Assembly: GCF_028641065.1 (NCBI RefSeq) | Contig: NC_073405.1 | Span: 20,398,001-20,462,000, forward strand | Length of the DNA: 64,000 bases | Direction of reading: 5' to 3' | Origin: Leucoraja erinacea | Lineage: Eukaryota | Shown here: one piece after another, positions 31,008 to 64,000 of the stretch | How positions within the stretch are numbered: the first letter of the stretch is position 1 | Layout of the letters: the number at the start of each line of letters is the position of its first letter | Notes under the pieces: generated by a model | Told to the model about the DNA's origin: nothing | Databases searched by the model: none | The model's input: only the letters and a program-made list of their open reading frames with translations | Program-made: the position numbers and the translations under genes

Positions 31008-31051
31008 GTAAGTCACCAATCCTGCTCGACCACTATGATACGACACCTTTA

Positions 31052-37603: not shown

Positions 37604-37634
<31 letters not shown>

Positions 37635-38910: not shown

Positions 38911-39326
38911 TAGGATTGCCAACTGTCCCGTATTAGCCGAGACATCCCGTATATTGGGCTAAATCGGTTTGGCCCATATGGGACTGCCCTTGTCCCGTAT
39001 TTGACTGCTATTACTCGGGTCGAGGGGACTGTCGGGTCAGAGCGCTGCCTCACCCATCCCAACGTAGTGCAGCCCATGGAGTGCAGCAGCAGCACCTCTC
39101 CTGTGGCCCCGTCAGTCTGCAGCCCGGCCGGCTGTCCGGCCTTCGCTTACCGCCGACACCACCACCCCTCCTTCTCATGGCCAATCATCGGTTCATGAGT
39201 TGGATACTTTGTGTGCATTCCAGCACCCGGGCCAACACATCATTCACGAAGCCATGGCCGAGTCTGTCAACGAATTGCCGTCGGGAATTTGTCCCTTATT
39301 TGGGGATGAGAAAGTTGGCAGCCCTA
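38911..39326 (+). mobile_element. Non-autonomous hAT element (same family as 2444-4396)
   Basis: TIR TAGGATTGCCAAC...GTTGGCAGCCCTA. 8-bp TSD GACTGAGG (38903-38910, 39327-39334). Confidence 0.9.
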
Positions 39327-39724
39327 GACTGAGGGCAGTCAGCGCTCCCTGGTCCCGTGAATGGCCACCTTGGTCCGGGCTCGGCAGCAGGCCGTGACGG
39401 AAGTCGGCCACTGACCCAAAGGTTGGGATTGTGTTGTTGAAGTGCAACCCGACCATGAGGAGCAGCAGTCCACATATTCGCAGGAAAGGGGGGGATGGGT
39501 AGTTGCAACCTCACACATTCCAGAGATGCCGGACTTATGCCGGCTGCAGAAATGATCAGCAGCCTGGAAATCTGGGAATGTGCGGAGTGGAGTGAGTATG
39601 TGGAGCACTCTGCACCCTGGGTGCCCTGTGCTGGGGCAGCACTGTACACTCAGCAGCAGAGGGGTCTGGGATTCTCAGAGCCTGTGTCAGATGGTTTACA
39701 TTTTGTGGCCTTTGTGTTTTACAG

Positions 39725-39808
39725 CTCGAGCTATGATGTTGTTTTCCTGCATTCCGTTGCCTACAATACGAGCTCAGCTGTCCAAACAAATAGATGAAGC
39801 TTCCTACG
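39725..39808 (+). CDS. SLC46A2: SLC46A2-like exon 2 (ARAMMLFSCIPLPTIRAQLSKQIDEASYG)
   Basis: ttttacag acceptor, 84 nt, G|GTAAGA donor, phase 1/1 compatible, SLC46 'IRS.LSK'-type motif. Confidence 0.9.
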
Positions 39809-40270
39809 GTAAGAATGCACTTTGCAGCACCGTGTAATACATTGCACAGATCCATTCTATCCTTGCAACACTGAAGGCCATTCAGCCCATCAGATCAATG
39901 CCGGCTCTTGGACCAAACCCATTTCCCACTTTGAGTAGGAAAGAACTGGGGTGGAAGATCGCAACCTTCACGTGGTCCGCCCTGTTTCGACTAATGCAAT
40001 CAACTCGACGTGCACAAACGGAAGATCAAATAGAACAAGTTGTCCAACAACTTTAGGCTGTGCACGCCACACGAAAGAAGAAGTAGAAGTAGGAATGAAC
40101 TGTAGATGCTGGTTTACAGTAAATCAAAGGTAGACACAAAATGCTGTAGTAACTCAGCGGGACAGGCAGCATCTCTGGAGAGAAGGAATGGGTGACATTT
40201 TAGGTGGCATCTTTCTTCAGACTTTTTCCACTTTATTCCCTGCAATCTATTCTTCCACACATTCCATTAA

Positions 40271-40322
<52 letters not shown>

Positions 40323-43061: not shown

Positions 43062-43797
43062 CAGGGGTGCCCTGCCGGCAGTCTGTTCGTTTTTTCATCT
43101 TTTTGTTATTTTTATCGTTTGTTAAAAGTTTGTTTTAATGTACTTTGGTCTGTTTTATGTGGAGGGAGAGGGGGAGGGGATCTGGGGAAACTTTTTTTCA
43201 AGTTCCTACCTTCCCGGAGATGTGATCAATTTTTCGGATCACATTCTCCGGGCTCTGCGGGCCTGCCATCGCTGGAGCTGGAGGCCTCCTCGGACTGTCG
43301 TGAGCCCCACCGTGGGGCACGGACTTAACATCGGAGCGGATCCCTTGCCTGGGATCGCTCCCACCGCGGCCTGGGGATTTACCATCAAGGGCTCGCAGTC
43401 TCGGGAGAAGCAAGTCGGGAAGCTCCAACGGAGCAGAAGGTTCGACCAGCCCCAACGCAAGGTACGATTGCCCGGCGCGGGGGAGCTGACATCCCCACCC
43501 CCCGATGCAAGAGCTGAATGCCTCGACGCGGAGGGCCTAAACGCTGCCGGCTACGGGAGCCAAGACCGGAGGGCTCGAGGCCCCCGACCGAGGAAGAACA
43601 AAAGGAAGGACTTGAACATTATTTCGCCTTCCATCACAGTGAGGAATGTGTAGGAGTCACTGTGGTGGATGTTCATGTTAAAATGTGTTTTTGAGTCTGT
43701 TGCTTTTAATTGTATGACTGACCTGGCCAGTGAAATTCCTCGTATGTTGCAAAACATACTTGGCGAATAAAATCTGATTCTGATTCTGATTCTGATT
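43062..43797 (+). mobile_element. Non-coding retroposon with GC-rich body and (ATTCTG)n tail. Relatives at about 19190-19645(-), 50180-51030(-) and 52150-52412(-)
   Basis: Shared layout of T-rich head, G-run, 'cctacc' GC body and 'gccttccatcacag' 3' part, ending in AATAAA plus a microsatellite tail. Confidence 0.55.
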
Positions 43798-44354
43798 CAG
43801 ACTGAAACATCACCCACCCATATTCTCCAGAGATGCTGCCTGACCTGCTGAGTTATTCCAGCACTTTGTGACCTTTTGAGGTCTGTGCTTCCCTTATTCT
43901 GCCCTCTGGGCTCTGGATTCCAAAGTTGAAAGTATTGCATGTGTAGATAGAAGACTCCAGTTGATCCACTAGAAAGTGGAATGTGTATTTGGCAGGAGTA
44001 AGTACAATATTTATCAATGCAAGTAGTGCTTTTATATATGTAGGAAGGAACTACAGATGCCGGTTTACACTGAGAATAGACACAGAATGCTGGAGTAACT
44101 TAGCGGGACAGGCAGCATCTCTGGATGGAAGGAATGGGTGATGTTTCAGGTCAGCAGAGAGGCTGCCTATCCCGCTAAGTTACTCCAGCATTATGTGTCT
44201 ATCTTCGGTGTAGTCTGAAGAAGGGCCAAAACGTCACCATTCCTATCCAGAGATACTGCCTGTCCCCCTCAGTTACTCCAGCATTCTGTGTCTATCTTTA
44301 ATATTATATTTCAGCCCTGTGTGGCTGTGTTTGACGCCTTTTATTCTCTCTCAG

Positions 44355-44511
44355 GTTCTGTCTTCGCTTGGCTTCAGACAGCGATGGCTCTGACAGATGT
44401 GATAGCTACCCTCACCTACAACAGTCTCTACATTGCCTTCCTCGAATGGTACAGTGGCTTCTCTCTGCTCCTCGCCGCAGCCGTTTGCTGGCTCAGCACC
44501 TTGCCAGTTGT
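44355..44511 (+). CDS. SLC46A2: SLC46A2-like exon 3
   Basis: ctctctcag acceptor, 157 nt, GT|GTAAGT donor. Peptide 'GSVFAWLQ...TYNSLY...WYSGFSLLLAA'. Confidence 0.9.
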
Positions 44512-44915
44512 GTAAGTACAGTTGTGTAAGTCACACCAACAAGGGCAGCAGGAGATCATGAAACATGGGAGCAGAATTAGTCCATTCGGCCCATCGAGTC
44601 TGCTCCACCATTCAATCATGGCTGCCCCATATTTCCCCTCTCAACCTTCTCCTGCCTGCTCCCCATATGCTTTGATGCCCTTATTAATCAACAACCTAAA
44701 AATCTCAGCTTTAAAAATACCCAATGACACAGTCACAAAGTCATATTCATACAGCATGAAAACAGGCCTATCGGCAACCAACATGCCCCATCTACATTAG
44801 TCCCTCTTGCCTGCGTTTGGCCCAAACCTCTCCTGTCCAGGTATCTGTCCTATATTGTGATAGTACCTGCAGCCATCTGTAGCAATGAATCCTACAAACT
44901 CACCACCCTCTAGCT

Positions 44916-45093
44916 CAGGGCTTCCCAACCTTTTTCGTCCCGTTTACCCCTGGCAACTTTAATAGCACATAACAATGTTATCTCACTTATTTATGAACAA
45001 CCAATGATGACCAGAACCAAACACAGTCAGTCAATGAGAAAAAATATGTACAAATCCAGAATCAATAAATTGACCCCAGGTTGGGAACCCTTG
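44916..45093. mobile_element. hAT/Charlie-type MITE
   Basis: CAGGGCTTCCCAACC...GGTTGGGAACCCTTG with 8-bp TSD CTCTAGCT/CTCCAGCT. Confidence 0.8.
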
Positions 45094-45824
45094 CTCCAGC
45101 TGAAGAAATTCCTCCTCATCTCCAAACTAAAGGTGTGTCCTTTTATTCTGAGGCTGCGCTGTCTGATCCTAGACTCTCCCACTCGTGGAAACATCCTCTG
45201 CTGCAGTAGAGAAGTAGCCAAGCCCAACGGCTGACCCTATACCTTGCCGTAACCTCTGGTTACCAAGCATGGATCAATGAGTGATGGCTGACCCACAGCC
45301 ATTTACGTTTTCTCCTCAGATCACTCCCACCTGCTACACCCTGGACTGGAAGGCCATGAGGTGGATAGGACGATAGTTTAGTTTAGAGATACAGCGCGGA
45401 AACAGGCCCTTCGGCCCACCAAGTCCTCGCCGACCAGCGATCCTTGCACATTAACACTGACCTAGATATGCTAGCGACAATTTACACATACACCAAGCCA
45501 ATTAATCTACATACCTGTACATCTTTGGAGTGTGGGAGGAAACCGAAGATTTCGGAGAAAACTCACACGGTCACACGGAGAACGTACAAACTCCATACAG
45601 ACACAGTGCCGCCGCCCTAGTAATAGATCAAACTTAAATTGGCACAAGTATATGGGGAGGCTGGGCGGTTGGATTGATGTAATGTTGCAGGGAGAAAGCC
45701 GAAGGGAGTGGAATTGGTTCAGTTCTGATGCTGATGATGCACAGAATGACTTCTCTCTGCTGTTCTCTCAGTACATTTCCACCGTTGCGATGCTTAACCA
45801 TTTGTGGCTGCATTTCTGCTGCAG

Positions 45825-45939
45825 GGTTTACAGCTACAGACTGAGGAGGAGGGATGACGGCCTGGATTCTGACACACACTCCACGAGGACAATGGTCATC
45901 GATGACTTTGATGAATGTTCAACTGGCTCTTCGCAGTGA
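45825..45939 (+). CDS. SLC46A2: SLC46A2-like exon 4 (C-terminal cytosolic tail and stop)
   Basis: tttctgctgcag acceptor, phase 2 compatible, VYSYRLRRR...GSSQ*. Total CDS 964+84+157+115 = 1320 nt (439 aa). Candidate ATTAAA at 46288. Confidence 0.75.
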
Positions 45940-47283
45940 GGACACAAACCCAACCCACCGCCGGGTCTGCCAACTGTGCCGTTAAAATGTTCCAGTGGAG
46001 AATGTGGGCACTCGGAACGTGTCGGAGCCACAAATAATAGAAATTGACGAAGTTCTTCATCAAACGACTCTCTCATTGTGCTGTAGAAACAGCTCGTGTC
46101 TCTGTTTGAGAAATGTGGAGACCTTTCCAACACCCTTGTCGCTTATGGTCGAAAACTGAATTTTATTACCCAAAGGTAGTAGTACACTGGATTACCAGAC
46201 TACAGGAGCACATGGGATTACCAGCTCAAAGATCAACAGTTCAAATCCCACGTAGATGTAGATTGCTTTAGTTCTATAACACTCTTAATTAAAAGTGTGA
46301 TTACACTAAAAATGAGCATGTCCTTCAGTCACGGAGTCAACAGCAGAGAAGCAGGCCCTTCTGCTCACCACATCCGTTATGCTCATCTAGACTAATCCTA
46401 TTTGCTTGCACTAACCCTGTATCCTGCGCTTAGTCTATTTAAGTGTTTGTTCAAATGTCTCCTAAATACAGTGATCATGTCCAATTTCACCACCTCCTCC
46501 GGCAGTGATTTCCAGATATCAACCATTCTCTGTGCAAACAGACTTACCACTCAGATCCCCTTTAAATCTCCTTTCTCTCACTTTAACCCAATGCCCTCTT
46601 GTTTTGATACCCCTGTCATTGGAAAAAATTCTCATTACCTTCTTCATTCATCAATCGCCATCGCCAGCTGGGGGTTTTGACTTTGACTCTGACATCGGGG
46701 GGGGTGGGCGGAGTGCAGTGGAGAGATAAGTTTTTTTGGCCTTCCATCACAGCAATGTGATGGATGTTTATGTAAATTATGTTGTGTCTTGGGTCTATTT
46801 GTTTGTAATGTATGGCTGCAGAAACGTCATTTCGTTTGGACCTCAAGGGGTCCAAATGACAAATAAATTGTATCTTGTATCTTGTATCTTGATGCCTGAT
46901 CATTTTATATACTTCTCTCGTCATCCCTCAGCCTCCTTTGCTCCAGGTTTAGTTTAGTTTATTATTGTCTTGTGTACAGGTGCAGTGAAAAGCTTTTTGA
47001 TGCGTGTTGTCCAGTGAGCGGAAAGACTGTACATGATTACAATCAAGCCGTCCCAGGTGTACAGGGAATATATTTAACGCATGGTAAAGTCCAGTTAAGA
47101 TAGTCCAAGGGTCTCCAATAGGTAGATGATAGCTCATCCAGCCTATCTAATCTCTCCCCATTACTGAACTCCTAAAATCCAGGCAACATCTCATTGTATT
47201 TCCCCTGCACTCACTCCAGTGCAATCACTTCCTTCCAAAGTGCAGATAATACTCTAGTTGCAACGTAACTGATTTCTGGGATG

Positions 47284-48097
47284 TCAAGTCGTCAAGTTTA
47301 TTTGTCACATACACATACGAGATGTGCAGTGAAATGAAAGTGGCGATGCTCGCGGACTTTTGTGCAAAAGACAAACAACCAAACAAACTATAAACACAAT
47401 CATAACACACATATTCTTTTACATAATAAATAATGGAAGGAAAAAAGTTCAGTAGAGTTAGACCCTGGTGAGATAGGCGTTTACAGTCCGAATGGCCTCT
47501 GATAAAAAACTCCTTCTCAACATCTCCGTTCTCACCGCATGGCAACGGATGCGTTTGCCTGACCGTAGCAGCTGGAACAGTCCGTTGCAGGGGTGGTAGG
47601 GGTCTCTCATGATATTGTTGGCTTTGGTGTTGCACCTCCTGATGTATAGTTCCTGCAGGGGGGCAAGCGAAGTTCCCATAGTGCGTTCGGCCGAACGTAA
47701 TACTCTCTGCAGTGCCTTCTTGTGCTTGGCAGAGCAATTCCCAAACCAGATGGTAATTTTCCCGGACAAGATGCTTTCCACCGCCGCTGCGTAGAAGCAC
47801 TGGAGGATCCTCGGAGACACTCTGAATTTCCTCAATTGCCTGAGGTGGTAAAGGCGCTGCCTTGCCTTACTCACGAGTGCTGAGGCGTGTGATGCCCATG
47901 TCATATCCTCAGAGATGTGGACTCCCAGATATTTAAAACAGTTCACCCTATCCACAGGATCCCCATTTATCCTCAATGGAGTGTACGTCCTCGGATGATG
48001 TGCCCTCCTAAAGTCCATGATCAGCTCCTTCGTTTTTTTGATGTTCAAGAGGAGGCTGTTATCCTGGCACCAGAGTGCTAGACCAGCCACCCCCTCC
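47284..48097 (-). mobile_element. Young 5'-truncated Rex1/Babar LINE with an open 210-aa C-terminal ORF
   Basis: 'WCQDNSLLLNIKKTKELIMDFRR...FKYLGVHI...KARQRLYHLR'. AATAAA plus (CTTGA)n tail. The same tail occurs at ~4985 and ~61021. Confidence 0.85.
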
Positions 48098-48560
48098 CTG
48101 TCAGGACTTTCATATGAAGAAAGACTGGATAGACTCGGCTTGTACTCGATATAATTTAGAAGAATGAGGGGGGATCTTATAGAAACTTACAAAATTCTTA
48201 ATGGGTTGGACAGGCTAGATGCAGGAAGATTGTTCCCGATGTTGGGGAAGCCCTGGACAAGGGGTCACAGTTTAAGGATAAAGGGGAAATCTTTTAGGAC
48301 TGAGATGAGAAAAACTTTTTCACACAGAGAGTGGTGAATCTCTGGAACTCTCTGCCACAGAAGGTAGTTGAGGCCAGTTCATTGGCTATATTTAAGAGGG
48401 AGTTAGATGTGGCCCTTGTGGCTAAAGGGATATTTGGGTATGGAGAGAAGGCAGGTACAGGATACTGAGTTGGATGATCCGCCATGATCATATTGAATGG
48501 CGGTGCAGGCTCAAAGGGCAGAATGGCCTACATTTGCACCTATTTTCTATGTTTCTATGT
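48098..48560 (+). mobile_element. CR1-clade LINE 3' fragment
   Basis: Homologous to 62270-62940. Ends in (tttctatg)n. Confidence 0.85.
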
Positions 48561-51500
48561 AACACCACAACTTTTAGACTTTCTTTCCTGCCTTAGGAAC
48601 ATAAAACAGAAGAGCTGGCCCACGATATCCATGCCGTACATGATACCAAGTTAAACTAATCTCATCTGCCTGTGCAGGATCCATACCCCTCCATTACCTG
48701 CATATTCCCATGCCTGCCTAACAGCCTCTTAAATGCCACTATCGTATCTCCCTCTGCCACCACTCCATGCATCCACTACCCTATGTGTAAAAAAAATTGG
48801 CCTGCACATCTCTTTTAAATTTTACCACCCTTACCTATAAAGCTAGTCTTTGACATTTGCACCTTGCGGGAAAAAAGCTTTGACCATCTACCCTATCTAT
48901 GCCTCTCATAATGTTATATAATTTTATCAAGGTTTCCCTCAACCTCTGGCATTCCAGAGAAAAGAATACAAGTTTGTCCAACCCCTCCTTGTAGCTAATA
49001 CCCTCAAACCCAGGCAGCATTCTGATAAATGTAGAAACAAAGAACTGCAGATGCTGGTTTATACCAAAGGCAGACACAATGTGCTGGAGTAACTCAGCAG
49101 ATCAGGCAGCTTCTTTGTAGAAAAAGGATAGGCGATGTCTTGGGTTGGGAACCTTCTTCAGAGTCTCTAAAAGTCTGAAGAAGGGTCCCAACCCAAAACC
49201 ACACCTACAGTATACTTTTTCTCCAGAGATGGTGCATGGCCCGTGGCGTTACTCCAGCACTCTGTGTCTATCTTTAGCATTTTGATAAACCTCCTCCACA
49301 GTCTCTCCAAAGCCTCCACATCCTTCCTCAAAATGGGCAACCAGAAATGAGCACAATCCTCCAAATGTGGAATAGCCAAAGTCCTACAGAGCTGCATCAT
49401 GACTTCCTGACTCTTGTACTCAATGCCATGACCCATGAAGGGTGAGCAATTGACACAACTTCTTCACCACTATCTCCTTATGCTGCCATTCAAGGAGTTC
49501 TTGGACCCCAAGATCCCACTTTACATCAATGCTACAAGGCTTTGCCACCAACTGCTCCCTGACAGGAGTTACAGGTGTGTTGGTTTATTTGTAAAGTTCC
49601 AACTGGAATATTTATTCTTTCAAGAAAGGAATGTTTTTATCCTTCTCCAGTGTATCCGATGCTCAGGGAGCATTTTTCGATTCTTCAGAAAAAATATGCG
49701 GAGGGGCGCAGGGTTCCGTTAATAAATGGCAAACTTGTCAAGTCAAGTGGAATTGAGTTTATTGTCATATGCACAAGTACGCTACAGGTACAATGAAAAT
49801 ATTCCTTGCAGCAGCATCACAGGCACAGAGACTCAGACCACGCTCAATAAAATTAATTATACATAAAATAGCATAAATTACGCATGTTCGGCAAGGCAGT
49901 GAAAAGAAAAAGACAGCAAAATAAAACAAATCATTGGCGCAAAACACAATTAGGAAACATTTCCATGTTACTGAAAGAGGTGATTGGTAATGACCATTGT
50001 GAGGTAGGGTTAGCGATGTGCAGGTTGGCTCAAGAACCTGATCGTTGTAGAGAAGCAGCTGTTCCTGAACCTGATAGTGTGGAACTTCAGGCTTCTGTCC
50101 CTGCTGCCCAACAGTAGCCGTGAGAAGAAGGCACGGCCTGGAAGGTGAGGATCTTGATGATAGATGCTGCTTTCTTCAAAGAAAGATCAAAGGTTGTTTA
50201 TTAGTCACATACACCAATTGGTGCAGTGAAATGTGTATTGCCAATGTGTGTATTGTATTGTATTGTAAATGTGTATTGCCAATGCAGCACATAAAAAAAG
50301 AAAACAACATAACAATAATAAAGAAATTTAACATAGAAAACATCCCCCACTATGGTTCCCATTATGAGGGAAGGCACAAAGTCCAGTCCCCATCCCCATG
50401 TCCACCCATAGTCGGGTCTATTGAGGCCTCTGCAGTCGCCTTTACGGAGGCCCGATGTTCCAGGCCGTTCTCGCTGGATGATGGTACTCCGGCAGCGGGA
50501 GAATCTTCTCAGCGGCTTGGGAAACCTGGAACAGCCGCTTCCTTACCGGAGACCGCGGCTTCCGAAGCCAACAGGCCGCGCTGGATGGAGCTCCACCACT
50601 GACGATCTCGGCAAGAGATCCCAGGCTCCCGATGTTAAAGTTCACCGCCGCCGCTGGCCACTCGACAGTCCCACAGTTCCGCGATGTTTCATCGCCGGTC
50701 CCAGCATACCGAGCCTCAGCGCGGCGACCCGGGCAAGGCATCACCCGTTCCGCTCCGCGATAGCGCTCCAGCGCTGCGCCGACGCAGAAGCCGAGGTTCT
50801 GGAAACGCTGCTCCAGGCCCGCTGGTAGGCCACGAGGACGGGTCGAAGGTGTAGCCCGGAGAAAAGCCACCTCTCTTCAACCAGGTAGGGACCCTGAAAA
50901 GCAGTCCCACCCCCCCCCCACCCCCCACATAAAAAAAGACTAGAACTCAACTAACTAAAAAATTTTTTAAACAGGAAAAAAACGGACAGCTGCAGGCTGG
51001 GCAGCCATACCCGTACAGGACGGCGCCGCCTAGCCTTGAGGCTGAGCCTGATACCTTTGATGCAGGGGAAGGCTGTGCCCGTGATGGAGCGGGCACAGCC
51101 ACCACTCTCTGCAGCCTCTTGCATTCCTGTGCATTTGAATTGCTGTACCAGGCCACGATGCAACCAGTCAGGATACTTTGTACAGTGCATCTGCAGAAGT
51201 TTGATAATCCGGTGACTTGACAAATCTTGTTACACCTCCAAGAAAGAAAGGGGGGGGGGATGGGAGGAGGGTGTTCAGGTTTTTTGGGTTACGGCCCGTG
51301 TTCCGTAGGTTGCCGAACCCTGTCCTAGATGTTTGGCCTCATTGAGGCGCTCCCCATGTTTTACAACCGATTCACCTGGTTAGTTTTATCTCCGGCTGCT
51401 TCATGTTGTCAGCGGCTGCACATCCAACCAAGAAAGAAGAGAGGAGAAGAGATGAGACGTCACTCACAGCCGCCAACTGACGCGCTTCCACAGACCGCAC

Positions 51501-51680
51501 AGATCGTTGTGACATGGCGCAAAACGACAAACTGTGCAGGGACTGAAGACAGCGTGAGAATTCTGTCATCAGCGTGAGAATTGGCTGAAATGCGTGACTC
51601 TCACGCTCAAAGCGCTCAAAGCTCAAAGCGTGAGAGTTGGCAGCCCTGTCTAAGGCCAGGATGTGACAACAGACGCACAG

Positions 51681-51860
51681 NNNNNNNNNNNNNNNNNNNN
51701 NNNNNNNNNNNNNNNNNNNNNNNNNNNNNNNNNNNNNNNNNNNNNNNNNNNNNNNNNNNNNNNNNNNNNNNNNNNNNNNNNNNNNNNNNNNNNNNNNNNN
51801 NNNNNNNNNNNNNNNNNNNNNNNNNNNNNNNNNNNNNNNNNNNNNNNNNNNNNNNNNNNN
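51681..51860. other. Assembly gap
   Basis: Run of N, next to (CA)-rich repeats. Confidence 1.
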
Positions 51861-54800
51861 TGGGGAGACACACACACACAGGGATACACACACACAGGGA
51901 GACACAGACACACACACACACACACACACAGGCACACACACACACACACACACACACAGACAGACACAGGGAGACACAGACACACACACACACAGGGAGA
52001 CACACACACACAGGGAGACACACACAGGGAGACACGCACACAGGGAGACACACACAGGGAGACACACACACACACCAGGGCTGCCAACATTGGGTGAGAG
52101 TTGGGAGTGAGAAATTGCGAGAGACCAAGCCCAAGGGAGCGTAGCGACCGTGGGGGGGGGGGGGGGGGGGGGAAGAGGGTACAAGGTGCTCCACGCCCGC
52201 TGGTAGGCCACGAGGACGGGTCGACGGGGCAGCCCGGAGAAAAAGCTGCCTCACCGACCAGGTAGGGACCTAGAAATATTGTTCCCCCCTAACCCCCACA
52301 TTAAAAAGTCTATCTCACCCACAAACAAAGCACAGGACTCAATAAAACTACAAAAAAAAAGTGAATTAAATGGACGGCTGCTGGTTAGCAGCCGTTCCCC
52401 AAGATGGCTCCTCCATCTTTTAAACTTTCCCTCTGACCTAAAAGCTATGCCCTCCAGTCTTTGACATTTGCCCCCTGGGAATATAGATCTGACTGTCCAC
52501 CCCTGCCTCCTTTAAACTTTGCACCCCCATCCCCCTCCCCCCCCCCCCCCCCCCCCCCCCCCCACCCCCCCCAGGGAAGGCACAATCCCCCCTCCCCCCC
52601 TCCCCCCTCAGCTTAAAGCCATGTTCTCCAGTGTTTGATATTTGCATCCTGGATCTCCCAAGTATGGCACTAGTGTGGGAAGAAATCGGGTCTAAGACAC
52701 CTTGTAGAAGGATGTCATAGATATCCATGATCATATTGAATGGCGTTGCAGGCTCGAAGGGCCGAATGGCCTACTCCTGCACCTAATTTCTATGTTTCTA
52801 TATATAGAAACATAGAAAATAGGTGCAGGAGGAGGTCATTCGGCCCTTCGAGCCAGCACCGCCATTCATTGTGATCATTCTTGGCTGATCGTCCCCAATC
52901 AATAACCCGTGCCTGCCTTCTCCCCATATCCCTTGATTCCACTAGCCCCTAGAGCTCTATCTAATTCTCTCTTAAATCCATCCAGTGATTTGGCCTCCAC
53001 TGCCCTCTGTGGCAGGGAATGCCACAAATTCACAACCCTCTGGGTGAAAACGTTTTTTCGCGACTTAGTCTTAAATGGCCTCCCCTTTATTCTAAGTCTG
53101 TGGCCCCTGATTCTGGAACTGTTGCTGTCCGCTCTCGTACAACAGGTCCCAAGTTTTTGTCAAAAGGACTAGGTTACAGAGTTAATTCCTTAGCCTGTCA
53201 CCATCCAAACAGTTAGACCCAGAGCAGTAGGAACTGCCCACATTCAGGTGTTTACCCAAAGCCGCATTCTCGGCGAAAACAAAGAATCCTATCCTTTTGT
53301 AATATCTGGTAAATCACAGCCTAGAGATGGGATGCCCCTGACAGTGCAGTTTGTGCCCAAGGCGATGAGAAACCTCGCCCAACTGGCTCTCCCACAACTG
53401 CAAGAGGAAGAGGTCTGAGCCAGTTCCCCTCATTAACATCACAACAGGATTCACATTCCGAAAAACAGGTGAAATCCCGGTAATGCTCACCTTTCACACG
53501 CTCAGTCTACCCCACGGTAGAGCTGTCAGTCACTCTTACACCATAGTACGTGGCCATTCATCCCATCGGATCACTCAATAGACAATAGGTGCAGGAGTAG
53601 GCCATTCGGCCCTTCGAGCCAGCACCGCCATTCAATGTGATCACGGCTGATCATCCCCAATCAGTACCCCGTTCCTGGCCTTTTAAAGGAGCATTCATTT
53701 AACTTGTCACTCGTCCTTCCTCCACCTCATCATTCCCCTCCTCCTCCTCTTCTCTCCTCCTCACATTCCTTCCCACCTACCTTTTCATTTCACTGTCTAC
53801 GCGCTTACCCTTTCACCATCTTTTCTGTTCTTTCTCTTCTCCTATCCCTGCCCTCCCTTCATTCACTGATCCTCTCTTTCTCTTCATCGTCCTCACTTCT
53901 TCTTTCCCTCTCTTCTCCAACCTTCTACATTCATACTCCCACATTTGTCCTCCCTCCCAAAGTTACCTTCCTCCACAATGCCCCATCCTCACACCATCTT
54001 CTGCACCTCCCTCTTTCCTCTCTCCTGCCCAGGTCTCCCCTTCCTCCATTCCTTCACCGCTCATTTCTTTGCACCTCTGTAACATTTGACATGTTATATG
54101 CAACTTTGCTGAGCTTCTTGATGCCTGTAACCCCGTGGTCAGCAGCTGTATCAATGTTTGTGTCATTGACATTAATTTCAATGTTAAAACCGCAGCATTT
54201 TCTATTCTTCCCCCAGCGCTGTGCTCCTAAGAATACTCATCGACTTCATCCCTGTTCAATCCTCAGTTTAATGTTACCTGCTCACTGGCTTCAGTCTTAC
54301 CCACTGATGCCAGGTGTCCATCGTTCTGCAGTTGAAGTACTTCACTGCTCTCGGCTGGTATGTTTGCCTTACATGATCACTAGTCATTCCTGGCTGATTT
54401 TTCCTCCTTTTTAACATAGAACAGTACAGGCACAGACTCAACAGGTCAGCCCACATCTCTGGAGAACATGGATAGGTGACTTTTCAGTTCGGGACCCTTC
54501 TTCAGACTATTTGTATTGGGGAGGAGGGGGGAAGAAAGCTGGAAGAGAGGAGGCTGGACATAGCATGGCAGGGGATTGGTGAACACAAGTAAGGGAGGTT
54601 TCAATAGGCGGATGGTTGGACAGAAAAGGCCTGGGATGAAAAAACAAAAGGTGTGAGACAAAAACTTTAGTTTTTAAGAGGGAATTGGATTTAGCTGTTA
54701 GGGCTAAAGGAATCACGGGATATGGGGAAATAGCAGGAACGGGGTACTGATTTTAGATGATCAGCCATGATCATATTGAAAGGCGGTGCTGGCTCGAAGG

Positions 54801-54877
54801 ACCAAATGGCCTACTCCTCCACCTATTTTTCTATGTTCTATGTTTCTAAAAGAATTCAAAAGGATTGAAGAGTTGTG

Positions 54878-55010
54878 AGTCTGAAGAAGGGTCCCGACCC
54901 GAAACGTCACCTATCGATGTTCTCCAGAGATGCTGCCTGACCCGCTGAGTTACTCCAGCACTTTGTGTGTCTTTTTTTTGTAAGCCAGAATCTGCAGTTC
55001 TTTGTTTCTA
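54878..55010 (+). repeat. Penelope-derived pLTR repeat with an intact minimal hammerhead core (representative of many copies)
   Basis: CTGAAGA-A-GGGTC-CC-GACCC-GAAAC-GTC at 54881-54908. Confidence 0.65.
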
Positions 55011-57046
55011 CATGGACCAATACAGCACAGGAAGAAGCCCTTTGGCCCACAATGTCCATGCCGAACATAATGCCAAAGTAATTATGTGAGGCATGCACAT
55101 AATCCAAACTTGCCCACTTTGATCAAGCTTTAGTTCCTCATACTGCTGTTATTTCCTCACAGATGCCATCAAAACCGGCCTTAGGCATGGTACAGGTACT
55201 TCAGCATTTTTAGACGGCATCTCATCTTGGGGTGTTCCGTAGTTTAGACTGAACTTGTAAACAAACCTCCACTGCAGCACACGTTTCCAGAAGGTTCTGA
55301 GGTCAAGCCGCACACAATCGACTCTGACACCAGCGACTTCACTCTTATTGATGTTCTAAGTGAAGGAAGTAACGGGACTGTGCGCAAACTCAGTGTGGCT
55401 TTGTGGCGGGGAAATGCGAGATTTAGCAGGATGCAGCAAGCAGGGTTAACGAAGGGGACCCAGCAGATGAAGTATATCTAGATATCTGGAAGGCATTCAC
55501 CACGTGAAGGGATGTGAAGACCACTTTAACGTTTGTGAAGCTAAGCACAGCAGAGGTGAAATCAATAGAGCATGGATTTTCCTTAAACAGACACAAAGTG
55601 CTGGAGTAACACAGCAGGTCAGGCAGCAACTCTGGAGAATGTGGATAGGTGACGTTTCGGGTGGGGATTCTTCTTCAGACTCCTAGTCTTAGTCTGAAGA
55701 TGGATCCCGATCTGAAATGTCACCTGGAAAATGACTTGGTATTCCTACTCAAAGTGAAACACTAAAATAAACTGAACTGAACTAAACTACTTGTCCGCCT
55801 GTCATGCTCAATCCAGAGTAGAAATAAGGAACTGCAGATGCATATTTTACAACAAAAAAAGGACACAAAGTGCTGGAGTAAGTCAGCGGGTCAGGCAGCA
55901 TCTTTGGAGAACATGGATAGATGACGTTTCGTGCAGCTCCCAAGTGAGTGTCGTGGCGTTTTTAACGGCGGACTGGTCGCCTTCTGAGCGCAAATATCAT
56001 CAAATCAATCAAAACACAAGATGAAACTTTCAGTGCACACACTTTAATGAATGTCATTTCAGCCGCATTAGTTAGCATCAGTACAACAGCACAAATACTG
56101 ATAGTGGCTTCTCCGCCCTGGTTTCCTAGTATCCAACAACGCTGGGCCTCCCGGCAGCTGCTCAGAGGGTCCTGACCATTGACGAAGGGAGCCTCGACTA
56201 CATCTCAAGGTGTCGGGCGAGTGAGGACTGAGGGTTGGAATGGTGGGGGGAGGTGAGGGGGATGGGGCCCATTTCCGCAGGACACTGTCTGAGGGGGGGT
56301 GGGGAGTGGGCGAGCATCCTTTTCATGCTGTTCCATCCACCCACCTGAACCCACACTCAGGATCCTGTCTGAGCCCACACACACACACCCATTGTAGCCG
56401 GGTAATACCCAACGGGCTCCTCACCAGCTGCATTCACCCACTGTGGATGACTGGCCCATCTCTTCTCATCCCAGCCGTCCCGTCACCCACACCACCTCCC
56501 CCTGCCCGTTCCCTTACCCCCTCACTAGCACTCCCTCGACTCCTGCTCCCTCAGCCTTCCGTCACCCTCTCACCCCTCCATCAACGCTTTCCCCTCACCA
56601 CCATCCCCAGTGTGGCAGGAAAATCCAAGATTTACGAGGGTGGTTGAAGGGGAACCAGTAGAACAGATTACAACGGGTATCTGAGGGAGACCTTTATCAC
56701 CTAGAGTGGTGAGTACCTGGAACACACTGGCAGAGAGAGAGAGTAGCAGAGGCACAGTCACTGACCATTTCAGAAGTCTCGAGCCAAATACTTAAACCAA
56801 CCAGGTGGACAACACCGTAAACCAAGTGGATGAGTGCCCACTGGTCAGTGTGGATGTGCTGGGCTGAATGGCCTGTCTCCATGCTGTATAACTCTGACGG
56901 TGATGTATCAGTCATTGGCTCCTCCCCGAGTTCCTCTGCTGGGAAATTCAGGACCTATTGAGGAAGCTGTGGGAGTTGTCGGTCTGACCAGGATAACGGA
57001 CCACCATCGTCCTGGATGATCTCCTGTTGATCGGTGGGTTGTACCG

Positions 57047-57089
<43 letters not shown>

Positions 57090-58292
57090 CCAGCCCCAGC
57101 CCCGCAGACAGTGTGTGGTGGAGCATCCTTGCTGGGCTCTCTCGTTGTCTCTGATTGTGGATCCTCTGGAGATGGAGCAGGGGTTGGACACAAAATGCTG
57201 GAGTAACTCAGCGGGACAGGCAGCGTCTCTGGAGAGAAGGAATGGGTGACATGTCGGGTCGAGACCTTTCATCAGCCTGAAGAAGGGTCTCGATCCGAAA
57301 CGTCACCCATTCATTCCTTCTCTCCAGAGACGTTGCCTGTCCCGCTGAGTTACTCCAGCATTTTGTCTCTAACTTCACTTTAAACCAGCCTTGCTGGGGT
57401 CTCTCGTTGTCCTCTGCGTGTGAGGTTGGGAGGGAGCTGGTGAGCAGAGACAGGGCGTGGCCGGTTCAATCCCCGCTCCCCGATGTCGTCGCTCAACGCT
57501 GCTTCAGCGGCTTCTGGCGAGACCGGGTCAGAGACTCGTGACCTCTCAGCGAGCGCTAGAACAGGGTCTGGCAAGTTGCCGCCCGCAAGTCCTCCACTGC
57601 TCGGGTCACCGGGCGATGGTCCACGGCGAACTCAAGATCACCTCGTCTCCACCGCTGGCCCTGGAGAAGCTTCACCGGGTGGCAGTCCCACCTTCCGTTC
57701 ACAAATACTCCTCCGTGTATGAGGCGATCCATCCCCACCAGCGGCTCCGGCCTTGCAGCCCCCTCCTCACGTCTGTGGAACAAGCAGGTTGTTCTGTTAC
57801 AGGGAGGTTTCAGCAGATACTCACCCCCCTCACCTTCACCCTTCGGCCTGTCCCATCACCTCTCCCCACCACTCACCGCAACCATCAACTCCTCCCCCTC
57901 CTCATCACTCACCTCACCCCCACCATTCACCATTTGAATCGCCCCCTCATCTGTCCCCTCGCCCCCGCCTCCATCATTCACCCTCCCCATCGCCACCTCA
58001 TCCTCCCATCCCCATTACTCTCTCACCCTCACTCTTTAACCTCTCCCATCACCCCCTCACTGTCTCGGTCACTCACCCCTCCTTCTCACCTTGCCCATCA
58101 ACACCGCACACTCACCCCTCTGTCCTCCCATCACCCTCTCACCCCTTCCCCTATAGTCCCCTCCATCACACCCACCTCACCAACACTTTGCTCCTCACTC
58201 GCCGCTCACTCACTACTCCTCATCCCTTCCCCTCCATTAACTCCCACTTCCATGTCCATACCTCCCTACTGTCCACCCGGCCCCCTTTTTAA

Positions 58293-58505
58293 TGCCCCTG
58301 TCCCACTTAGGAAACCTGAACGGAAACCTCTGGAGACTTTGCGCCCCACCCAAGGTTTCCGTGCGGTTCCCGGAGGTTTTTGTCAGTCTCCCTACCTGCA
58401 ACCTCCGGCAACCACCTGCAACCTCCGGGAACTGCACGGAAACCTTGGGTGGGGCGCAAAGTCTCCAGAGGTTTCCGTTCAGGTTTCCTAAGTGGGACAG
58501 GGGCA
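58293..58505. mobile_element. PIF/Harbinger-type palindromic MITE
   Basis: TGCCCCTGTCCCACT...AGTGGGACAGGGGCA with ~85-bp arms. TAA TSD at 58290-58292 and 58506-58508. Confidence 0.9.
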
Positions 58506-60475
58506 TAACTAACCTCTCCAGTCCCTGTCACTACTCCGGCTTTCTCTTCCCCCACCAGACTTCCCCAGCTAATCCAAACCTCCTCATCCGCATCCACCTA
58601 TCACTCTACCCCCTCTATCCTCTCCTCACCTCGGTTTACTGGCCGTCTCCCCCCTACTATTTCAGCCCAGATGAAGGGTCCTGACCTGAAATGTTAACCG
58701 TCCATTTTCCCTCCACAGATGCTGCCTGACCAGCACTTTTGTTACTCTATTTCTCTATTTCTCCTCAAATTCCCTCAACCACCCTCCCAACCCACTCGCA
58801 TCCCAGGAACCAGGCCAGTGCATCCTCACTGAAATCGCTCCAAGGAAGCTATATCCCTTCCAACTAAGTACTAAGTAGTACTACTAAGTATCCCTTCCCA
58901 CTAAGTAACAAAACTCTAATGATGCACAGTATCACAGGGATAGTCCCTGTAAGGCCCAATGACGTTGCACATCTTGTACCGAAAACCTGTGTAACAAAGG
59001 CCCACACCCAGCTTGACTCCCTAAATGCTTGGAAAGATGACTCAAAATGCTGGAGTAACTCAGCAGGGTCGGGCAGCATTTCTGGAGAAAATGGATAGGT
59101 GACGTCTGGGCTTGGAAGGTAGGCTAACATTTTTATTCAGAGCAAAGCAGAGTGCTGAAAGGACTCCTCACCGTCAACTCCCACTTCCCACAGGGTGGTG
59201 GGTAGATGGAACAAGCTGCCAGAGGAAGTAGTTGAGGCAGGGACTATCCCAACATTTAAGAAGCAGTTAGACAGGTACATGGATAGAGGACAAGTTTGGA
59301 GCGATATGGACCAAATGCTGGTAGGTGGGACCAGTGAAGCTGGGACATGTTGGTCAATGTGGGCAAGTTGGGTCAAAGGGCCTGCTTCCACACTGTATCA
59401 CTCTATGACTCTAATTCAGCAAGCCGGGCAACATCTGTGGAGGAAATGGACCATTTCAGGTCGGGACCCTTCCCTGACCCTAAACGTTACCTATCTATTC
59501 CTTCTACAGATGCTACCCCTTGCCGTGCTGCCATCCAGCTACACGAGAGGCAACCTGCAGCGGCCATTTAACCCACCAACCCACATGTCTTTGGGCCGTG
59601 GGAGGAAACCAGAGCACCCAGAGAAAACCCACGTGGTCACAGTGAGAATGTGCAAACTCCCCATAAATGGCACCAGAGGTCAGGGTTGGTTCTAGGTCTC
59701 TGCAGCAGTGAGGCAGCAATGCTTCCGACTGCCACGTTCTTCAGACTCGACCCGAAAGGTCACCTATTAATTTTCTCCAGAGATGCTGCATGACCCGTTG
59801 ACTTACTCCATTACTTTGTGTCCTTTTGTGTATTAATCAGCAACTACAGTTCCTTGCTTCTGCCACACATTGAGTACTGTTTTTACACATACACTGGGCT
59901 CTTCAGTTCCTCCCCAGACCCTTAGATCTCCACAATTTCTGTTTTCCTGCTCTCCGTCTTAAGTGCTAACCTTTTACTTTTAAGCAGTGACCCTCGTTTT
60001 AGATTCTTCACATTTGCCCTGTGAAAATCCCTCTGTAACTCAGTCCTGCATTAACCTGGGCTGGTACAAGCTGGGCCAGTACAAGCCAGGCCAGTACAGT
60101 GGGCTCCGAGGCTGTTGGAAGCAGCTCTATATTTGCTGCCTCCTTACTGCAATAGAGGATCAGGGTAAGGGTGAGGTGAGGATGGGGGTGGGAGGATGGT
60201 GAGAGTGCGGGTCGGAGGGAGGGTGAGTGTGGGAGTAAGGATTGAAGTGAGGGAGAGAATGATAGTAAGGGTGAGGATGAGGGTGAGTGAGGGTGCAGAT
60301 GCCCTCAATATTCATCAGGACTCCCGATGCTCCCATTACACACAGGGACAGAAATAACCCATTCAGCCCATCGAGCTTACTCCGTTATTCAATCACGGCT
60401 GAACAATCTTTCTTCCTCAACCCCGTTCTCCTGCCTTCTCCCGGAACCTTTGATGCTGCCGACGGATGCATCACC

Positions 60476-60775
60476 TTAGTGGGGACGAGGCGGACTCACC
60501 CTGGATGGTTTTGGGTGACTGTCCTTCACCAACAGGAGAACTGCCCCCGAGGTGATGCGATTCCCTTCCAGCGTCTCGTTCTCTCCCAGCTTCCGACCTT
60601 TGTAAGTGAAGTCCATCTTCCAGGAGGTGATTCCCTGCTTCACCAGGTGAAGACGGATCTGCTTCATCGTGTCGTTTGGCTTCACCTTGACCAAGACCAG
60701 CTCCTGACCATCCGGGTGCAACACCCCGACCTCTGTCTTGGCCCAGTGAGGGAACAGCTTCAGCACTGTGTGCAT
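60476..60775 (-). CDS. TINCR: TINCR ubiquitin-domain-containing microprotein (pTINCR/TUBL)-like. Probably spliced after codon 92
   Basis: ATG at 60775. Ubiquitin-like fold pattern. 'VKPNDT...LVKQGITSWK..F.Y..RKL...GAVLLLVKD' matches human pTINCR as recalled ('VRPRDT...LVGQGVSSWK..FYY..RRL...GSVLLLVSD'). AGG|GTGAGT donor at 60500|60499. Confidence 0.8.
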   Translation of the reverse strand: MHTVLKLFPHWAKTEVGVLHPDGQELVLVKVKPNDTMKQIRLHLVKQGITSWKMDFTYKGRKLGENETLEGNRITSGAVLLLVKDSHPKPSRVSPPRPH

Positions 60776-61869
60776 TCCAGCCCTGTATTGCTCAACCCAG
60801 CCACAGCCTCGTCGATGCAGGTGTCCGTCCTGGCCAGAGGTACAATGTGTGGCTCTGTTCTGCTGCAGCGATGTCGACCGAGAGGGTTGATTGTTTCACT
60901 GTGACAAATGAGCACCCTCCCTCCCCCCTCGAATGACGCATCGCAACCCGGACCTGGCTGGGAACTGGTTCTGCAGCATTCTCCAGCACTCACTCCGCAC
61001 CCACGCCCCTGTGCATTAAACAAGTCAAGTCAAGTCAAGTTTATTCGTCTCATACACATACGAGATGTGCAGTGAAATGAAAAGTGGCAATGCTCGCAGA
61101 CTTTGTGCAAAAAGACAAACAAACAACTAACCAAACTACAAACAGAATGTAACAGAATCACATACAAAGTTCGCACCAACTACAAGTATAAGGTGCAACA
61201 GGACTGACAAGAAATGGTTTCAGGACCTGGTAGGGGGGGATGAAAAATACGAAGTTGGTATATCCATTCCAGCTGTTTTCTTAACATAGCTTTTGTTTCA
61301 TTTTCTCTTTTTTTCTTTTCTACGGCCTATTTCTTAACTTTTTTCTCTAACTCTTCGCGTTATGGGTCTTTTTACTTGATCACTTTTTCACACACTCACG
61401 ATTCTAGCTCACTTTCTTTACCTTTTTCTCTTTTTAAAGCTTAAAAAATGAAAAGTGGTACAAGAAATGTATTGTTATATTTGGCTTGTATTATTGTAAT
61501 GTACTTTACTTCTAATAAATAAAATTTAAAAAAAAATTTAAAAAAAGCTCACACCAGCAGCCACCTGACTGAGTACAGCCCAGGAGAGTGATGGCTGCAG
61601 TCTGGGACAACCCACGGTTGAGCAGATTCTGTAGACGACAACAAAACTCTGTAAGAAGGAACTGCAGACGCTGGTTTGTACCAGCGACAGACACAAGATG
61701 CTGGAGTAACTCAGTGGGTCAGGCGGGCAGCATCTCTGGTGAAAAGGAATGGGTGACGTTTCGGGTCCAAAACACCACTTCAGACTGAAGGATAGAGGCC
61801 AGAACATAATAGGATCTAGGGCCAGCAACAGATGACCTCAGGAAGGGTGGAAGGTGTGTCTGCCCAAAC

Positions 61870-62060
61870 CTTGCACAAAACTCAGAGACCACCACAACAA
61901 CCCTATCGGAAACTTGGATAGCACCATGACAACCCTATGGCAACTGTGATAGCATCATGATAACCCACAACAGCTGGGATAATACAATAACTCCATGGCA
62001 ACTCGGAAAGCACCACAACTGCCCCACAGCAACCAGGGCAAGAAACACAACACCACCTTA
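61870..62060. repeat. ~30-bp degenerate tandem repeat (caccatgacaaccctatggcaac...)
   Basis: About 6 diverged units are visible. Confidence 0.6.
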
Positions 62061-62267
62061 AATGGTCTGACTAAAGGAGGAATTCAAGAGGAGTCATAGA
62101 GTGATACAGTATGGAAACAGGCCCTTTGGCCATGCTTGACAAGCCAACCAACATGCCCCATTCACACTAGTCCCACCTAGCTACATTTGGCCCTTATCCT
62201 TCTAAACCTATCATATCCATGTACCTGTCCAAATGTTTTTTAATGTTATGATCGAACCTGCCTCAAC

Positions 62268-63900
62268 TATCCACTTTGATGGCAAAAACAGGAATGCAGA
62301 CTATTATCTAAATGGTGGCCGATTAGGAAAAGGGGAGATGCAACGAGACCTGGGTGTCATGGTACACCAGTCATTGAAAGTAGGCATGCCGGTGCAGCAG
62401 GCAGTGAAGAAAGCGAATGGTATGTTAGCTTTCATAGCAAAAGGATTTGAGTACAGAGAAGGTTCATCAGACTGATTCCTGGGATGTCAGGACTTTCTTA
62501 TGAAGAAAGACTGGATAGATTTGGCTTATACTCGCTAGAATTTAGGAGATTGAGGGGGGATCTTATAGAAACTTACAAAATTCTTAAGGGGTTGGACAGG
62601 CTAGATGCAGGAAGATTGTTCCCGATGTTGGGGAAGTCCAAGACAAGGGGTCACAGCTTAAGGATAAGGGGGAAACCCTTTAAGATCGAGATGAGAAAAA
62701 CATTTTTCACAGAGTGGTGAATCTCTGGAACTCTCTGCCATAGACAGTAGTTGAGGCCAGTTCATTGGCTATATTTAAGAGGGAGTTAGATGTGGCCCTT
62801 GTGGCTAAAGGGATCAGGGGTATGGAGAGAAGGCAGGTACGGGATACTGAGTTGGATGATCAGCCATGATCATATTGAATGGTGGTGCAGCATCGAAGGG
62901 CCGAATGGCCTACTCCTGCAACTATTTTCTATGTATCTATGTAACTACCACCTATGGCAGCTCGTTCCATATAACCACCAGCCTCTGTATGAAAATGTTG
63001 CACCTCAGGTTCCTAATAAATATTTCCCCCCACACAAACCTATGTCCTCTGGTTCTCAATACTCTCCTCTGGGTAATAGGCTCTGAGCATTTACCCTATC
63101 CATTCCTCTCATGGTCTTGATATAAGATCACCCCTCATCCTCCTGCTCAACCTTCCTTTTGTTCAGGCATTCAAGTTCTGGCAACATCCTTGTAAATCTT
63201 CTCTCCATCCTTTTCAGCTTAGCTCAGAACTTTCCCATAACAGGGTGACCAAAGCTGAACACACTACTCCAGATGTGGCCTCACCAGTCCTGAACAGCTG
63301 TAACATAGCCTCCCAACTTCTATACAGTACCCTGACTGGTGAAGGCCAATATAACACCTTGACCATCCTACCTACCTGTGATGCCACTTTCAATGAACTA
63401 TGCACCTGCACTCCTAGAGATCTCCACTGTGTAGGTCCTGCCCTGGTTAGACTTGCCAAAATGCAACACATGCTTATCTGTATTAAACTCAATTATTCCT
63501 CAGCCAACCTGAGCAAGATCCTGCTGCAATTTTTGACCACCATTTTCGCTATCCACAATACCACTTTAGTATCATCTCAAACTTACCAATCGTGCCTAGT
63601 ATGTTCTCATCCAAATCATTGATATAGATGACAAAATAGTAATGGGCCCAGCACTGAACCCTGAGACACACCACTAGTCACAGGCCCCCAGTTCGAAAAA
63701 CAACCTCTCACTATCACTGTTTGCTTCTTCCCATTAAGCCAATTTTCCATCCAGTTGGCTAACTCTCCTTGGATCTTATGTAATCTAACTTTCCAGAGCA
63801 GCCTTCCATACGGATCCTTGTCAAATGCCTTGCTGAAATCAATACATTCTATGTCTACAACTCTGCCGTCACCATTTTGGTTGCATCTTCAAAATCTTCA
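62268..63900. mobile_element. CR1-clade LINE fragments: a plus-strand piece (62268-62940) nested in older minus-strand CR1 sequence
   Basis: 'RDLGVMVHQSLKV...AVKKANGMLAFI' and 'RRLRGDLIETYKILKG'. Minus-strand RT relic at 63000-63900. Confidence 0.85.
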
Positions 63901-64000
63901 TTATCTGTACATGTCTTTTTCCACAGTAAAAGCAGGAGAAATACTCATTGAGGGTCCACTCAGAGATGATTGCTTTAATCCCTGAGGGGCTCTATTCCCT

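What the first reader, a model, noticed from the sequence alone, without database searches (positions are those of the whole stretch)
60476..60775. Apparent TINCR/pTINCR (TUBL) ubiquitin-like microprotein in a probable cartilaginous fish
Seen: a non-repetitive 99-codon ATG ORF with a ubiquitin-like pattern, no C-terminal di-glycine, and a strong splice donor just after the domain. Established: human TINCR, long treated as a lncRNA, encodes an 87-aa ubiquitin-like keratinocyte protein with a C-terminal VLLLV SUMO-interacting motif, and lies on 19p13.3, the same band as SH3GL1. Against the human sequence as I recall it, the ORF aligns without gaps from Met1, with about 30 of 85 identities (W11, V31, P33, D35-T36, L44-V45, Q47-G48, S51-W52-K53, F56, Y58, G77, VLLLV 79-83, D85). 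Inference: this is an ortholog or close paralog. That would date the microprotein to at least the jawed-vertebrate ancestor, before cornified epidermis, whereas I know it mainly from tetrapods. Such a small ORF is easily missed by annotation.
Basis: partly seen in the sequence, partly recalled or inferred. Interest (0 to 1): 0.85.

Follow-up and report, generated by a model that had tools for sequence, protein, structure and literature searches.

The report
Skate TINCR microprotein, already annotated
This is the skate's single copy of TINCR, a small ubiquitin-shaped protein known from human skin; databases already label it TINCR-like in sharks, rays, sturgeon relatives and coelacanth, so the gene likely predates land vertebrates and hardened skin, although the main papers describe it only in tetrapods.

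Summary
The ORF is real, on the minus strand, and the TINCR call holds. It matches primate TINCR at 30 of 85 positions without gaps. Human TINCR (7MRJ) is the best single-domain PDB hit by sequence and by fold. Deer and frog TINCR find only this locus in the genome, and the gene tree follows the species tree. It is not new: RefSeq holds it as XP_055514814.1, 'TINCR-like', Leucoraja erinacea, and 11 more cartilaginous fishes, coelacanth and paddlefish carry such names. Corrections: the annotated product is 93 aa, spliced to a two-codon exon at 57772, not 99 aa. VLLLV is the last core strand of the fold and is exact in only 2 of 12 chondrichthyans; the invariant signature is a helix-loop ending in Ser51-Trp52. 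Synteny holds at chromosome level only. Expression was not tested. What remains: Nita 2021 states there are no fish orthologs, and my searches found no paper dating TINCR to the jawed-vertebrate ancestor.

The parts
60500..60775 (-). Coding exon 1 of TINCR-like: codons 1-92, the whole ubiquitin-like domain
   Evidence: identical to RefSeq XP_055514814.1 residues 1-92; GC3 0.77
60731..60775 (-). N-terminal extension (codons 1-15), same register as the human 'cap' but net charge +1 against +4 in amniotes
   Evidence: model pLDDT 47 over residues 1-10; cap described in PMC10006087
60617..60646 (-). Family signature, codons 44-53 (end of helix and following loop): L44, V45, G48, S51, W52 invariant
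   Evidence: 39 of 39 aligned family members
60527..60541 (-). VLLLV (codons 79-83): last beta strand of the fold, equivalent to ubiquitin 66-70; the proposed SIM in human
   Evidence: SIM claim in PMC9652315
57773..60499 (-). Predicted intron, 2727 bp, GT...AG, phase 0 after codon 92; holds a palindromic element at about 58292-58506
   Evidence: junction inferred from the RefSeq C-terminus, not from reads
60476..60499 (-). Read-through tail of the unspliced 99-codon ORF (codons 93-99 and TAA); intronic in the annotated gene
57767..57772 (-). Predicted coding part of exon 2: Thr93 and TGA, followed by 3' UTR
56043..56048 (-). Candidate poly(A) signal ATTAAA with GT-rich downstream sequence; unverified, the first of 10 such hexamers in 12 kb

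Best explanation
This is the single-copy skate ortholog of tetrapod TINCR/TUBL, a predicted two-exon gene for a 93-residue ubiquitin-fold protein without the di-glycine needed for conjugation, which likely works as a free, non-covalent binding module in epithelial cells. Shown here: the ORF, the family membership, single copy among scored candidates, the predicted beta-grasp fold and the missing di-glycine. Inferred: the splice to exon 2, epithelial expression (by analogy to mouse and human), and that the conserved binding face is the helix-loop segment L44-V45-x-x-G48-x-x-S51-W52-K53 rather than VLLLV or a ubiquitin-type Ile44 patch. On this reading, incorporation into the cornified envelope would be a later use in amniotes. 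Orthology about 0.9; this mechanism about 0.45.
For: Best single-domain PDB sequence hit is 7MRJ at 51.5 bits; the next single-domain chain scores 21.1. The model (pLDDT 82.4) ranks 7MRJ first in Foldseek (E 4.6e-9, rmsd 1.2 A over 77 columns; next entry 2.9e-7). Deer TINCR finds this locus at E 1.3e-10 (next 0.074; 21 matches of 43 candidates); frog TINCR at 1.9e-19 (next 3.26; 11 of 24). All 30 family rows form one side of a 100/100 branch against 9 ubiquitin and tandem-UBL units. In a 26-row ingroup tree chondrichthyans (100/96), tetrapods (98/91) and amniotes (100/99) separate as in the species tree. 0 of 39 members have GG within 8 residues after the last strand. Eleven positions are invariant in 39 of 39, five of them in residues 44-52; position 57, aligned to ubiquitin Ile44, is T 14, Y 12, S 8, F 3. 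The same contig carries PTBP1-like, two SAFB-like, an SRA-domain, an RPL36 and a Lon gene. Human TUBL is not conjugated (PMC8341662).
Against: Immediate neighbours differ from human: SAFB-like genes lie 5.5 and 5.7 Mb away, the SRA gene 2.8 Mb, RPL36 and Lon 16 Mb. The intron is 16 nt downstream of the human one and in another phase. Latimeria groups with sturgeon and paddlefish (86/76), though its expected place is not rejected (p-AU 0.243). With outgroups included, chondrichthyan monophyly had only 66/23 support. VIA Z for 7MRJ (14.2, rmsd 1.1, 75 aligned) ties with ubiquitin (13.6, rmsd 1.3, 73 aligned). NCBI names the fish proteins 'TINCR-like', not TINCR. No expression, binding or solvent-exposure data were obtained; W52 may be structural.
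Confidence: 0.7

Rival explanations
1. Ortholog that works as in the human model of Boix 2022: VLLLV is a true SUMO-interacting motif that binds SUMO and promotes CDC42 SUMOylation and epithelial differentiation.
For: The skate has the exact human motif. 9 of 12 chondrichthyans have VLVLV, which is still hydrophobic. Human pull-downs lost SUMO binding in the VLLLV>AAAAV mutant (PMC9652315).
Against: The motif is strand 79-84 of the model and aligns to ubiquitin 66-70, an inner strand whose alternate residues are buried (established knowledge of the ubiquitin fold), so a four-alanine mutant would likely unfold. The authors report that it is unstable. Exact VLLLV occurs in 2 of 12 chondrichthyans, 0 of 2 acipenseriforms, 0 of 1 coelacanth, 1 of 14 amphibians and 7 of 10 amniotes; position 83 is often polar or charged.
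Confidence: 0.15
2. A UBL-only decoy that docks on the proteasome and competes with UBL-UBA shuttles such as RAD23, tuning epithelial proliferation.
For: Proteasome subunits dominate human TUBL immunoprecipitates, and the authors propose this model (PMC8341662). The fold is ubiquitin-like.
Against: The Ile44-equivalent position is not conserved (Thr in the skate), and proteasome ubiquitin receptors use that patch (established knowledge). Co-purification may reflect turnover of an overexpressed small protein (inference).
Confidence: 0.15
3. A paralog (ohnolog or old duplicate) of tetrapod TINCR, with reciprocal losses hiding the duplication.
For: Different immediate neighbours; shifted intron; only 30 of 85 identity to primates; named 'TINCR-like' by NCBI.
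Against: One copy found in this genome with three queries; tree follows species; frog proteins that NCBI names TINCR are 38-43 of 85 identical to the skate and 35-38 of 85 to the primate; the contig carries genes of the human 19p13 group (band assignments partly recalled).
Confidence: 0.08
4. A pseudogene or untranslated ORF.
For: No read-level evidence of expression was obtained here.
Against: Intact homologs in 12 chondrichthyan species at 48-70 identities of 82-85 positions to the skate; GC3 0.77; canonical splice sites matching the RefSeq product.
Confidence: 0.02

Closest known systems
Human TINCR / pTINCR / TUBL (PDB 7MRJ; PMC7187231, PMC8341662, PMC9652315, PMC10006087)
   Same: Ungapped alignment from Met1, 30 of 85 identities; UBL-only protein, no di-glycine; N-terminal extension; domain on one exon with the ORF finished on the next; model rmsd 1.1-1.2 A.
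   Different: 93 against 87 aa; cap net charge +1 against +4; intron 16 nt later, phase 0 against phase 2; different neighbours; no cornified epidermis in the host (recalled).
RefSeq XP_055514814.1 'ubiquitin domain-containing protein TINCR-like' [Leucoraja erinacea]
   Same: This gene: residues 1-92 identical, record's contig length equals that of C29, 31,094,262.
   Different: Residue 93 is Thr from exon 2, not the 7-residue read-through tail.
TINCR-like proteins of other fishes (11 chondrichthyans, Latimeria XP_064424556.1, Polyodon XP_041086402.1, Acipenser 'hypothetical protein')
   Same: Same domain, same invariant residues.
   Different: Variable C-terminal tails; last strand VLVLV, VLMLV, VLLLA, QLVLR or HLVLR.
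Ubiquitin, NEDD8, SUMO (type I UBLs)
   Same: Beta-grasp fold, Z about 13.
   Different: About 16-27% identity in structure alignments, no di-glycine, Ile44 equivalent not kept; outside the family branch.

Membership tests
TINCR/TUBL gene family | Reciprocal best match with tetrapod TINCR | tested here: met
   forward, PDB; deer and frog TINCR find only this locus below E 0.07
TINCR/TUBL gene family | Single ubiquitin-like beta-grasp domain resembling 7MRJ | tested here: met
   model pLDDT 82.4; 7MRJ first in Foldseek; VIA Z 14.2, tied with ubiquitin 13.6
TINCR/TUBL gene family | No C-terminal di-glycine (type II UBL) | tested here: met
   0 of 39 with GG within 8 residues after the last strand
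TINCR/TUBL gene family | N-terminal extension before the UBL domain, in register with human | tested here: met
   ungapped from Met1; model residue 14 aligns to ubiquitin residue 1
TINCR/TUBL gene family | ORF over two exons, domain on the first | tested here: met
   against human and chicken; by sequence and annotation, not reads; exact intron position differs by 16 nt
TINCR/TUBL gene family | One clade with tetrapod TINCR, branching as the species do, single copy | tested here: met
   outgroups limited to ubiquitin and unnamed tandem UBL units
TINCR/TUBL gene family | Conserved gene neighbourhood | tested here: inconclusive
   same contig as SAFB-like, PTBP1-like, SRA, RPL36 and Lon genes, but other immediate neighbours; no other vertebrate genome could be read; several gene names recalled
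Mammalian pTINCR, functional features (not family-defining) | Strongly basic N-terminal cap | tested here: not met
   net +1 in the skate, -2 to +3 in 12 chondrichthyans, +2 to +4 in 14 amphibians, +4 in 10 of 10 amniotes
Mammalian pTINCR, functional features (not family-defining) | Expression in stratified epithelia; presence in the cornified envelope | not tested
   no read-level result was obtained; tissue labels are not given by the run search
Mammalian pTINCR, functional features (not family-defining) | SIM-dependent SUMO and CDC42 binding; proteasome association | not testable with these tools
   motif present but is a core strand and variable
Type I conjugated UBLs (ubiquitin, NEDD8, SUMO) | C-terminal di-glycine after the last strand | tested here: not met
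   positions matching ubiquitin 75-76 are Pro88-Lys89

The most novel reading that the evidence does not exclude
TINCR is a single-copy gene of the jawed-vertebrate ancestor, older than cornified skin, kept in sharks, rays, chimaeras, sturgeons, coelacanth and tetrapods but lost in teleosts (which would explain the printed 'no fish orthologs'), and its ancestral function runs through the invariant Gly48-Ser51-Trp52 loop, not through the published VLLLV SUMO motif.
Probability: 0.35. Interest if true: 0.5.

Novelty: already known. Interest (0 to 1): 0.3.

Why it matters
The gene is already in RefSeq under a TINCR-like name, so the annotation is not new. The comparison still corrects the printed range: Nita 2021 says no fish orthologs, Boix 2022 says tetrapods, Eckhart 2020 says mammals and birds. 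It means the protein cannot have arisen for cornification. The deep alignment also gives a cheap test between the three competing mechanisms for human pTINCR (SUMO/CDC42, proteasome, envelope component), by pointing mutagenesis at Ser51-Trp52 and by flagging that the published SIM mutant probably removes a core strand.

Tried and rejected
Expression: the run search listed 24 runs, 19 holding part of the stretch, none on record as RNA: no RNA holder listed, no evidence either way. No reads were laid, so the splice junction and tissue remain open. First structure model from the 11-row alignment was poor (pLDDT 49.9) and was replaced by the 30-row model. MICOS13 family search found nothing, also in controls, so it is uninformative. 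The VMAC name for the coiled-coil gene 57 kb upstream could not be confirmed by Pfam or the Atlas; it is recalled. The endophilin exon could not be assigned to SH3GL1 from PDB, which returned only SH3GL2 and SH3GL3 chains; SH3GL1 is recalled. No teleost, gar, bichir, lungfish or cyclostome name appeared among 11, 20 and 33 hits of word-seeded searches. In the profile search only 150 of 806 hits were listed, without names; 23 are single-domain and all of these look like TINCR, and I looked up names for 13 of the 18 new ones. Absence in those groups is therefore not shown. dN/dS was not possible (no DNA of other species). No Rfam match in 46000-64000; no full p53/p63 consensus site printed for the window. 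No earlier scan findings. Literature: TINCR with 'cartilaginous fish' (1 paper), 'shark' (15, 14 listed), 'teleost' (7), cornification+amphibian+fish (1); loose multi-term searches listed almost only papers without TINCR. None seen by listing reports a chondrichthyan TINCR; subscription journals are not covered. A complex fold was not run.

Full report
1. Observation. Pfam ubiquitin scores E 1.7e-5 over residues 23-84. Among 234 PDB sequences matched, three tandem polyubiquitin chains rank higher only by summed repeats; the best single-domain match is human TINCR 7MRJ (51.5 bits, E 9.6e-13), and the next single-domain chain scores 21.1. The alignment is ungapped over residues 10-85. Against a primate TINCR equal to human over 1-87 the count is 30 of 85, and every listed identity is present. 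Score 148 against a shuffled maximum of 46 in 2000.

2. Gene anatomy. A donor AGG|GTGAGT follows codon 92. RefSeq's protein has residues 1-92 identical and then Thr-stop. Of 3 AG-ACN-stop sites in the next 20 kb, the one at 57772 (CAG|ACG TGA) best fits an acceptor, giving a 2727-bp intron. Human and chicken TINCR have the same layout, with the intron inside codon 87 at phase 2 (Eckhart Fig. S1); the skate intron is 16 nt later at phase 0. The junction is inferred from sequence and annotation; no reads were laid.

3. Already annotated. The first homolog search returned 11 of 11 hits from cartilaginous fishes, 10 named 'ubiquitin domain-containing protein TINCR-like'. The top one is XP_055514814.1 of Leucoraja erinacea, on a contig of the same length as C29. 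Profile searches added whale shark, zebra shark, coelacanth, paddlefish, sterlet, frogs and axolotl, and reptiles, birds and mammals. That makes 12 chondrichthyan species. The ESM Atlas also places it nearest a TINCR cluster (0.95, possibly its own).

4. Ortholog or paralog. The genome gave one match with the protein itself (5 candidates). Deer and frog TINCR find this locus at E 1.3e-10 and 1.9e-19, with next hits at 0.074 and 3.26. Thirty family rows separate from 9 ubiquitin and tandem-UBL units at 100/100, though chondrichthyan monophyly is weak there (66/23). In a tree of 26 of the 39 rows of alignment A4 (chosen to thin amphibians and amniotes, no outgroup), chondrichthyans 100/96, tetrapods 98/91, amniotes 100/99 and skates 97/98 follow the species tree; Latimeria joins the acipenseriforms (86/76) but its expected place is not rejected (p-AU 0.243).

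5. Neighbourhood. Across 434 kb the order is FSD1-like, STAP2-like, endophilin A (SH3GL1-like), an MFS transporter (SLC46A2-like), TINCR-like, PTBP1-like (stop about 10 kb upstream), WDR55, a coiled-coil gene (VMAC-like), TAX1BP3-like, an EF-hand gene (CIB-like) and a Rab (RAB8-like). Tool-confirmed: MFS, PTBP1 as best PDB hit, WDR55, EF-hand and Ras, endophilin A family; the other names and the paralog choices are recalled. Human TINCR lies at 5.56 Mb on chromosome 19 next to SAFB2 and SAFB, with UHRF1 at 4.9 Mb (PMC6691350). On C29, SAFB-like exons (names recalled) lie at 14.72 and 15.00 Mb, an SRA gene at 17.62 Mb, and RPL36 and Lon at 4.48-4.49 Mb. So: same chromosome, other neighbours.

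6. Structure and conserved surface. The 30-row model has pLDDT 82.4 with a beta-grasp topology and a low-confidence N-terminus. Foldseek ranks both 7MRJ chains first (rmsd 1.1-1.2 A); VIA gives Z 14.2, tied with ubiquitin at 13.6. In 39 sequences, R41, L44, V45, G48, S51, W52, F56, Y58, L63, G77 and L82 are invariant. By the ubiquitin alignment, L44, F56, Y58, L63 and L82 match core residues (established knowledge); S51 and W52 match ubiquitin Pro38 and Asp39, a surface turn there, so they are the likely family-specific face (inference; exposure not computed). VLLLV is strand 79-84 and matches ubiquitin 66-70. It is exact in 10 of 39: 2 of 12 chondrichthyans, 0 of 3 other fishes, 1 of 14 amphibians, 7 of 10 amniotes. 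The Ile44 equivalent varies. The cap is net +1 against +4 in 10 of 10 amniotes.

7. Mechanism. Most likely a free type II UBL acting as a non-covalent module in epithelia through the 44-53 segment. Non-conjugation follows from the missing di-glycine and from human data. Partner and tissue in the skate are inferred. Rivals are the SUMO/CDC42 model, weakened because its mutant changes a core strand and is unstable, and the proteasome-decoy model, weakened by the variable Ile44 position. The cornified-envelope role would be a later use.

8. Literature seen. PMC7187231: main text part 1 of 2 and the supplement; range mammals and chicken. [quoted passage not shown] PMC9652315: passages and section 6; conserved across tetrapods. 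PMC10006087: passages; structure and basic cap. PMC12679747: passages; says seven of nine ORFs, a list that includes TINCR, trace at least to lobe-finned fish, without naming which. PMC6691350, PMC11835228, PMC13071498: passages; the last two irrelevant. Searches showed by listing no paper on a chondrichthyan TINCR; supplements of the other papers were not read and might hold wider alignments.

9. Verdict. A correct and well-made call on a gene that databases already name. Novelty: already known. The residual value is a correction of the printed range and a sharper hypothesis about the binding surface. Interest 0.3.

Noticed in passing
window 23133-27267 (-): Three long ORFs (357, 646, 307 aa): unassigned, reverse transcriptase and tyrosine recombinase; looks like a DIRS-type retrotransposon (name recalled) with open frames.
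   Followed up: partly
window 30044-45939 (+): MFS transporter gene resembling SLC46A2 (family by Pfam; name recalled), convergent with TINCR-like. Human SLC46A2 lies near PTBP3 on 9q32 (recalled), while this one lies near PTBP1-like: possibly an ohnologous block, and the place to look for a lost TINCR paralog.
   Followed up: partly
window 8924-8968 (-) and L024:959-1117 (-): First and later exons of an endophilin-A gene; SH3GL1 by recall, with STAP2-like and FSD1-like exons beyond, as in the human 19p13.3 order (recalled).
   Followed up: partly
L002 and L003 (C29 14.72 and 15.00 Mb): Two SAFB-like first exons, both on +, 280 kb apart (names recalled): a SAFB duplication in the skate arranged unlike the human head-to-head pair.
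   Followed up: no
window 58292-58506: Palindromic element of about 215 bp in the TINCR intron; both strands open with the same peptide; MITE-like.
   Followed up: no
window about 300-3900: Near-identical segments about 2.08 kb apart (ORFs at 312 and 2391), a local duplication inside the endophilin gene's first intron.
   Followed up: no
L008-L010 (C29 20.497-20.517 Mb): WDR55 on the minus strand, diverging from a coiled-coil gene resembling VMAC (recalled; not confirmed).
   Followed up: partly
homolog searches: Sturgeon and paddlefish have TINCR, but no teleost, gar, bichir, lungfish or cyclostome name appeared; a teleost loss is possible but not shown.
   Followed up: partly
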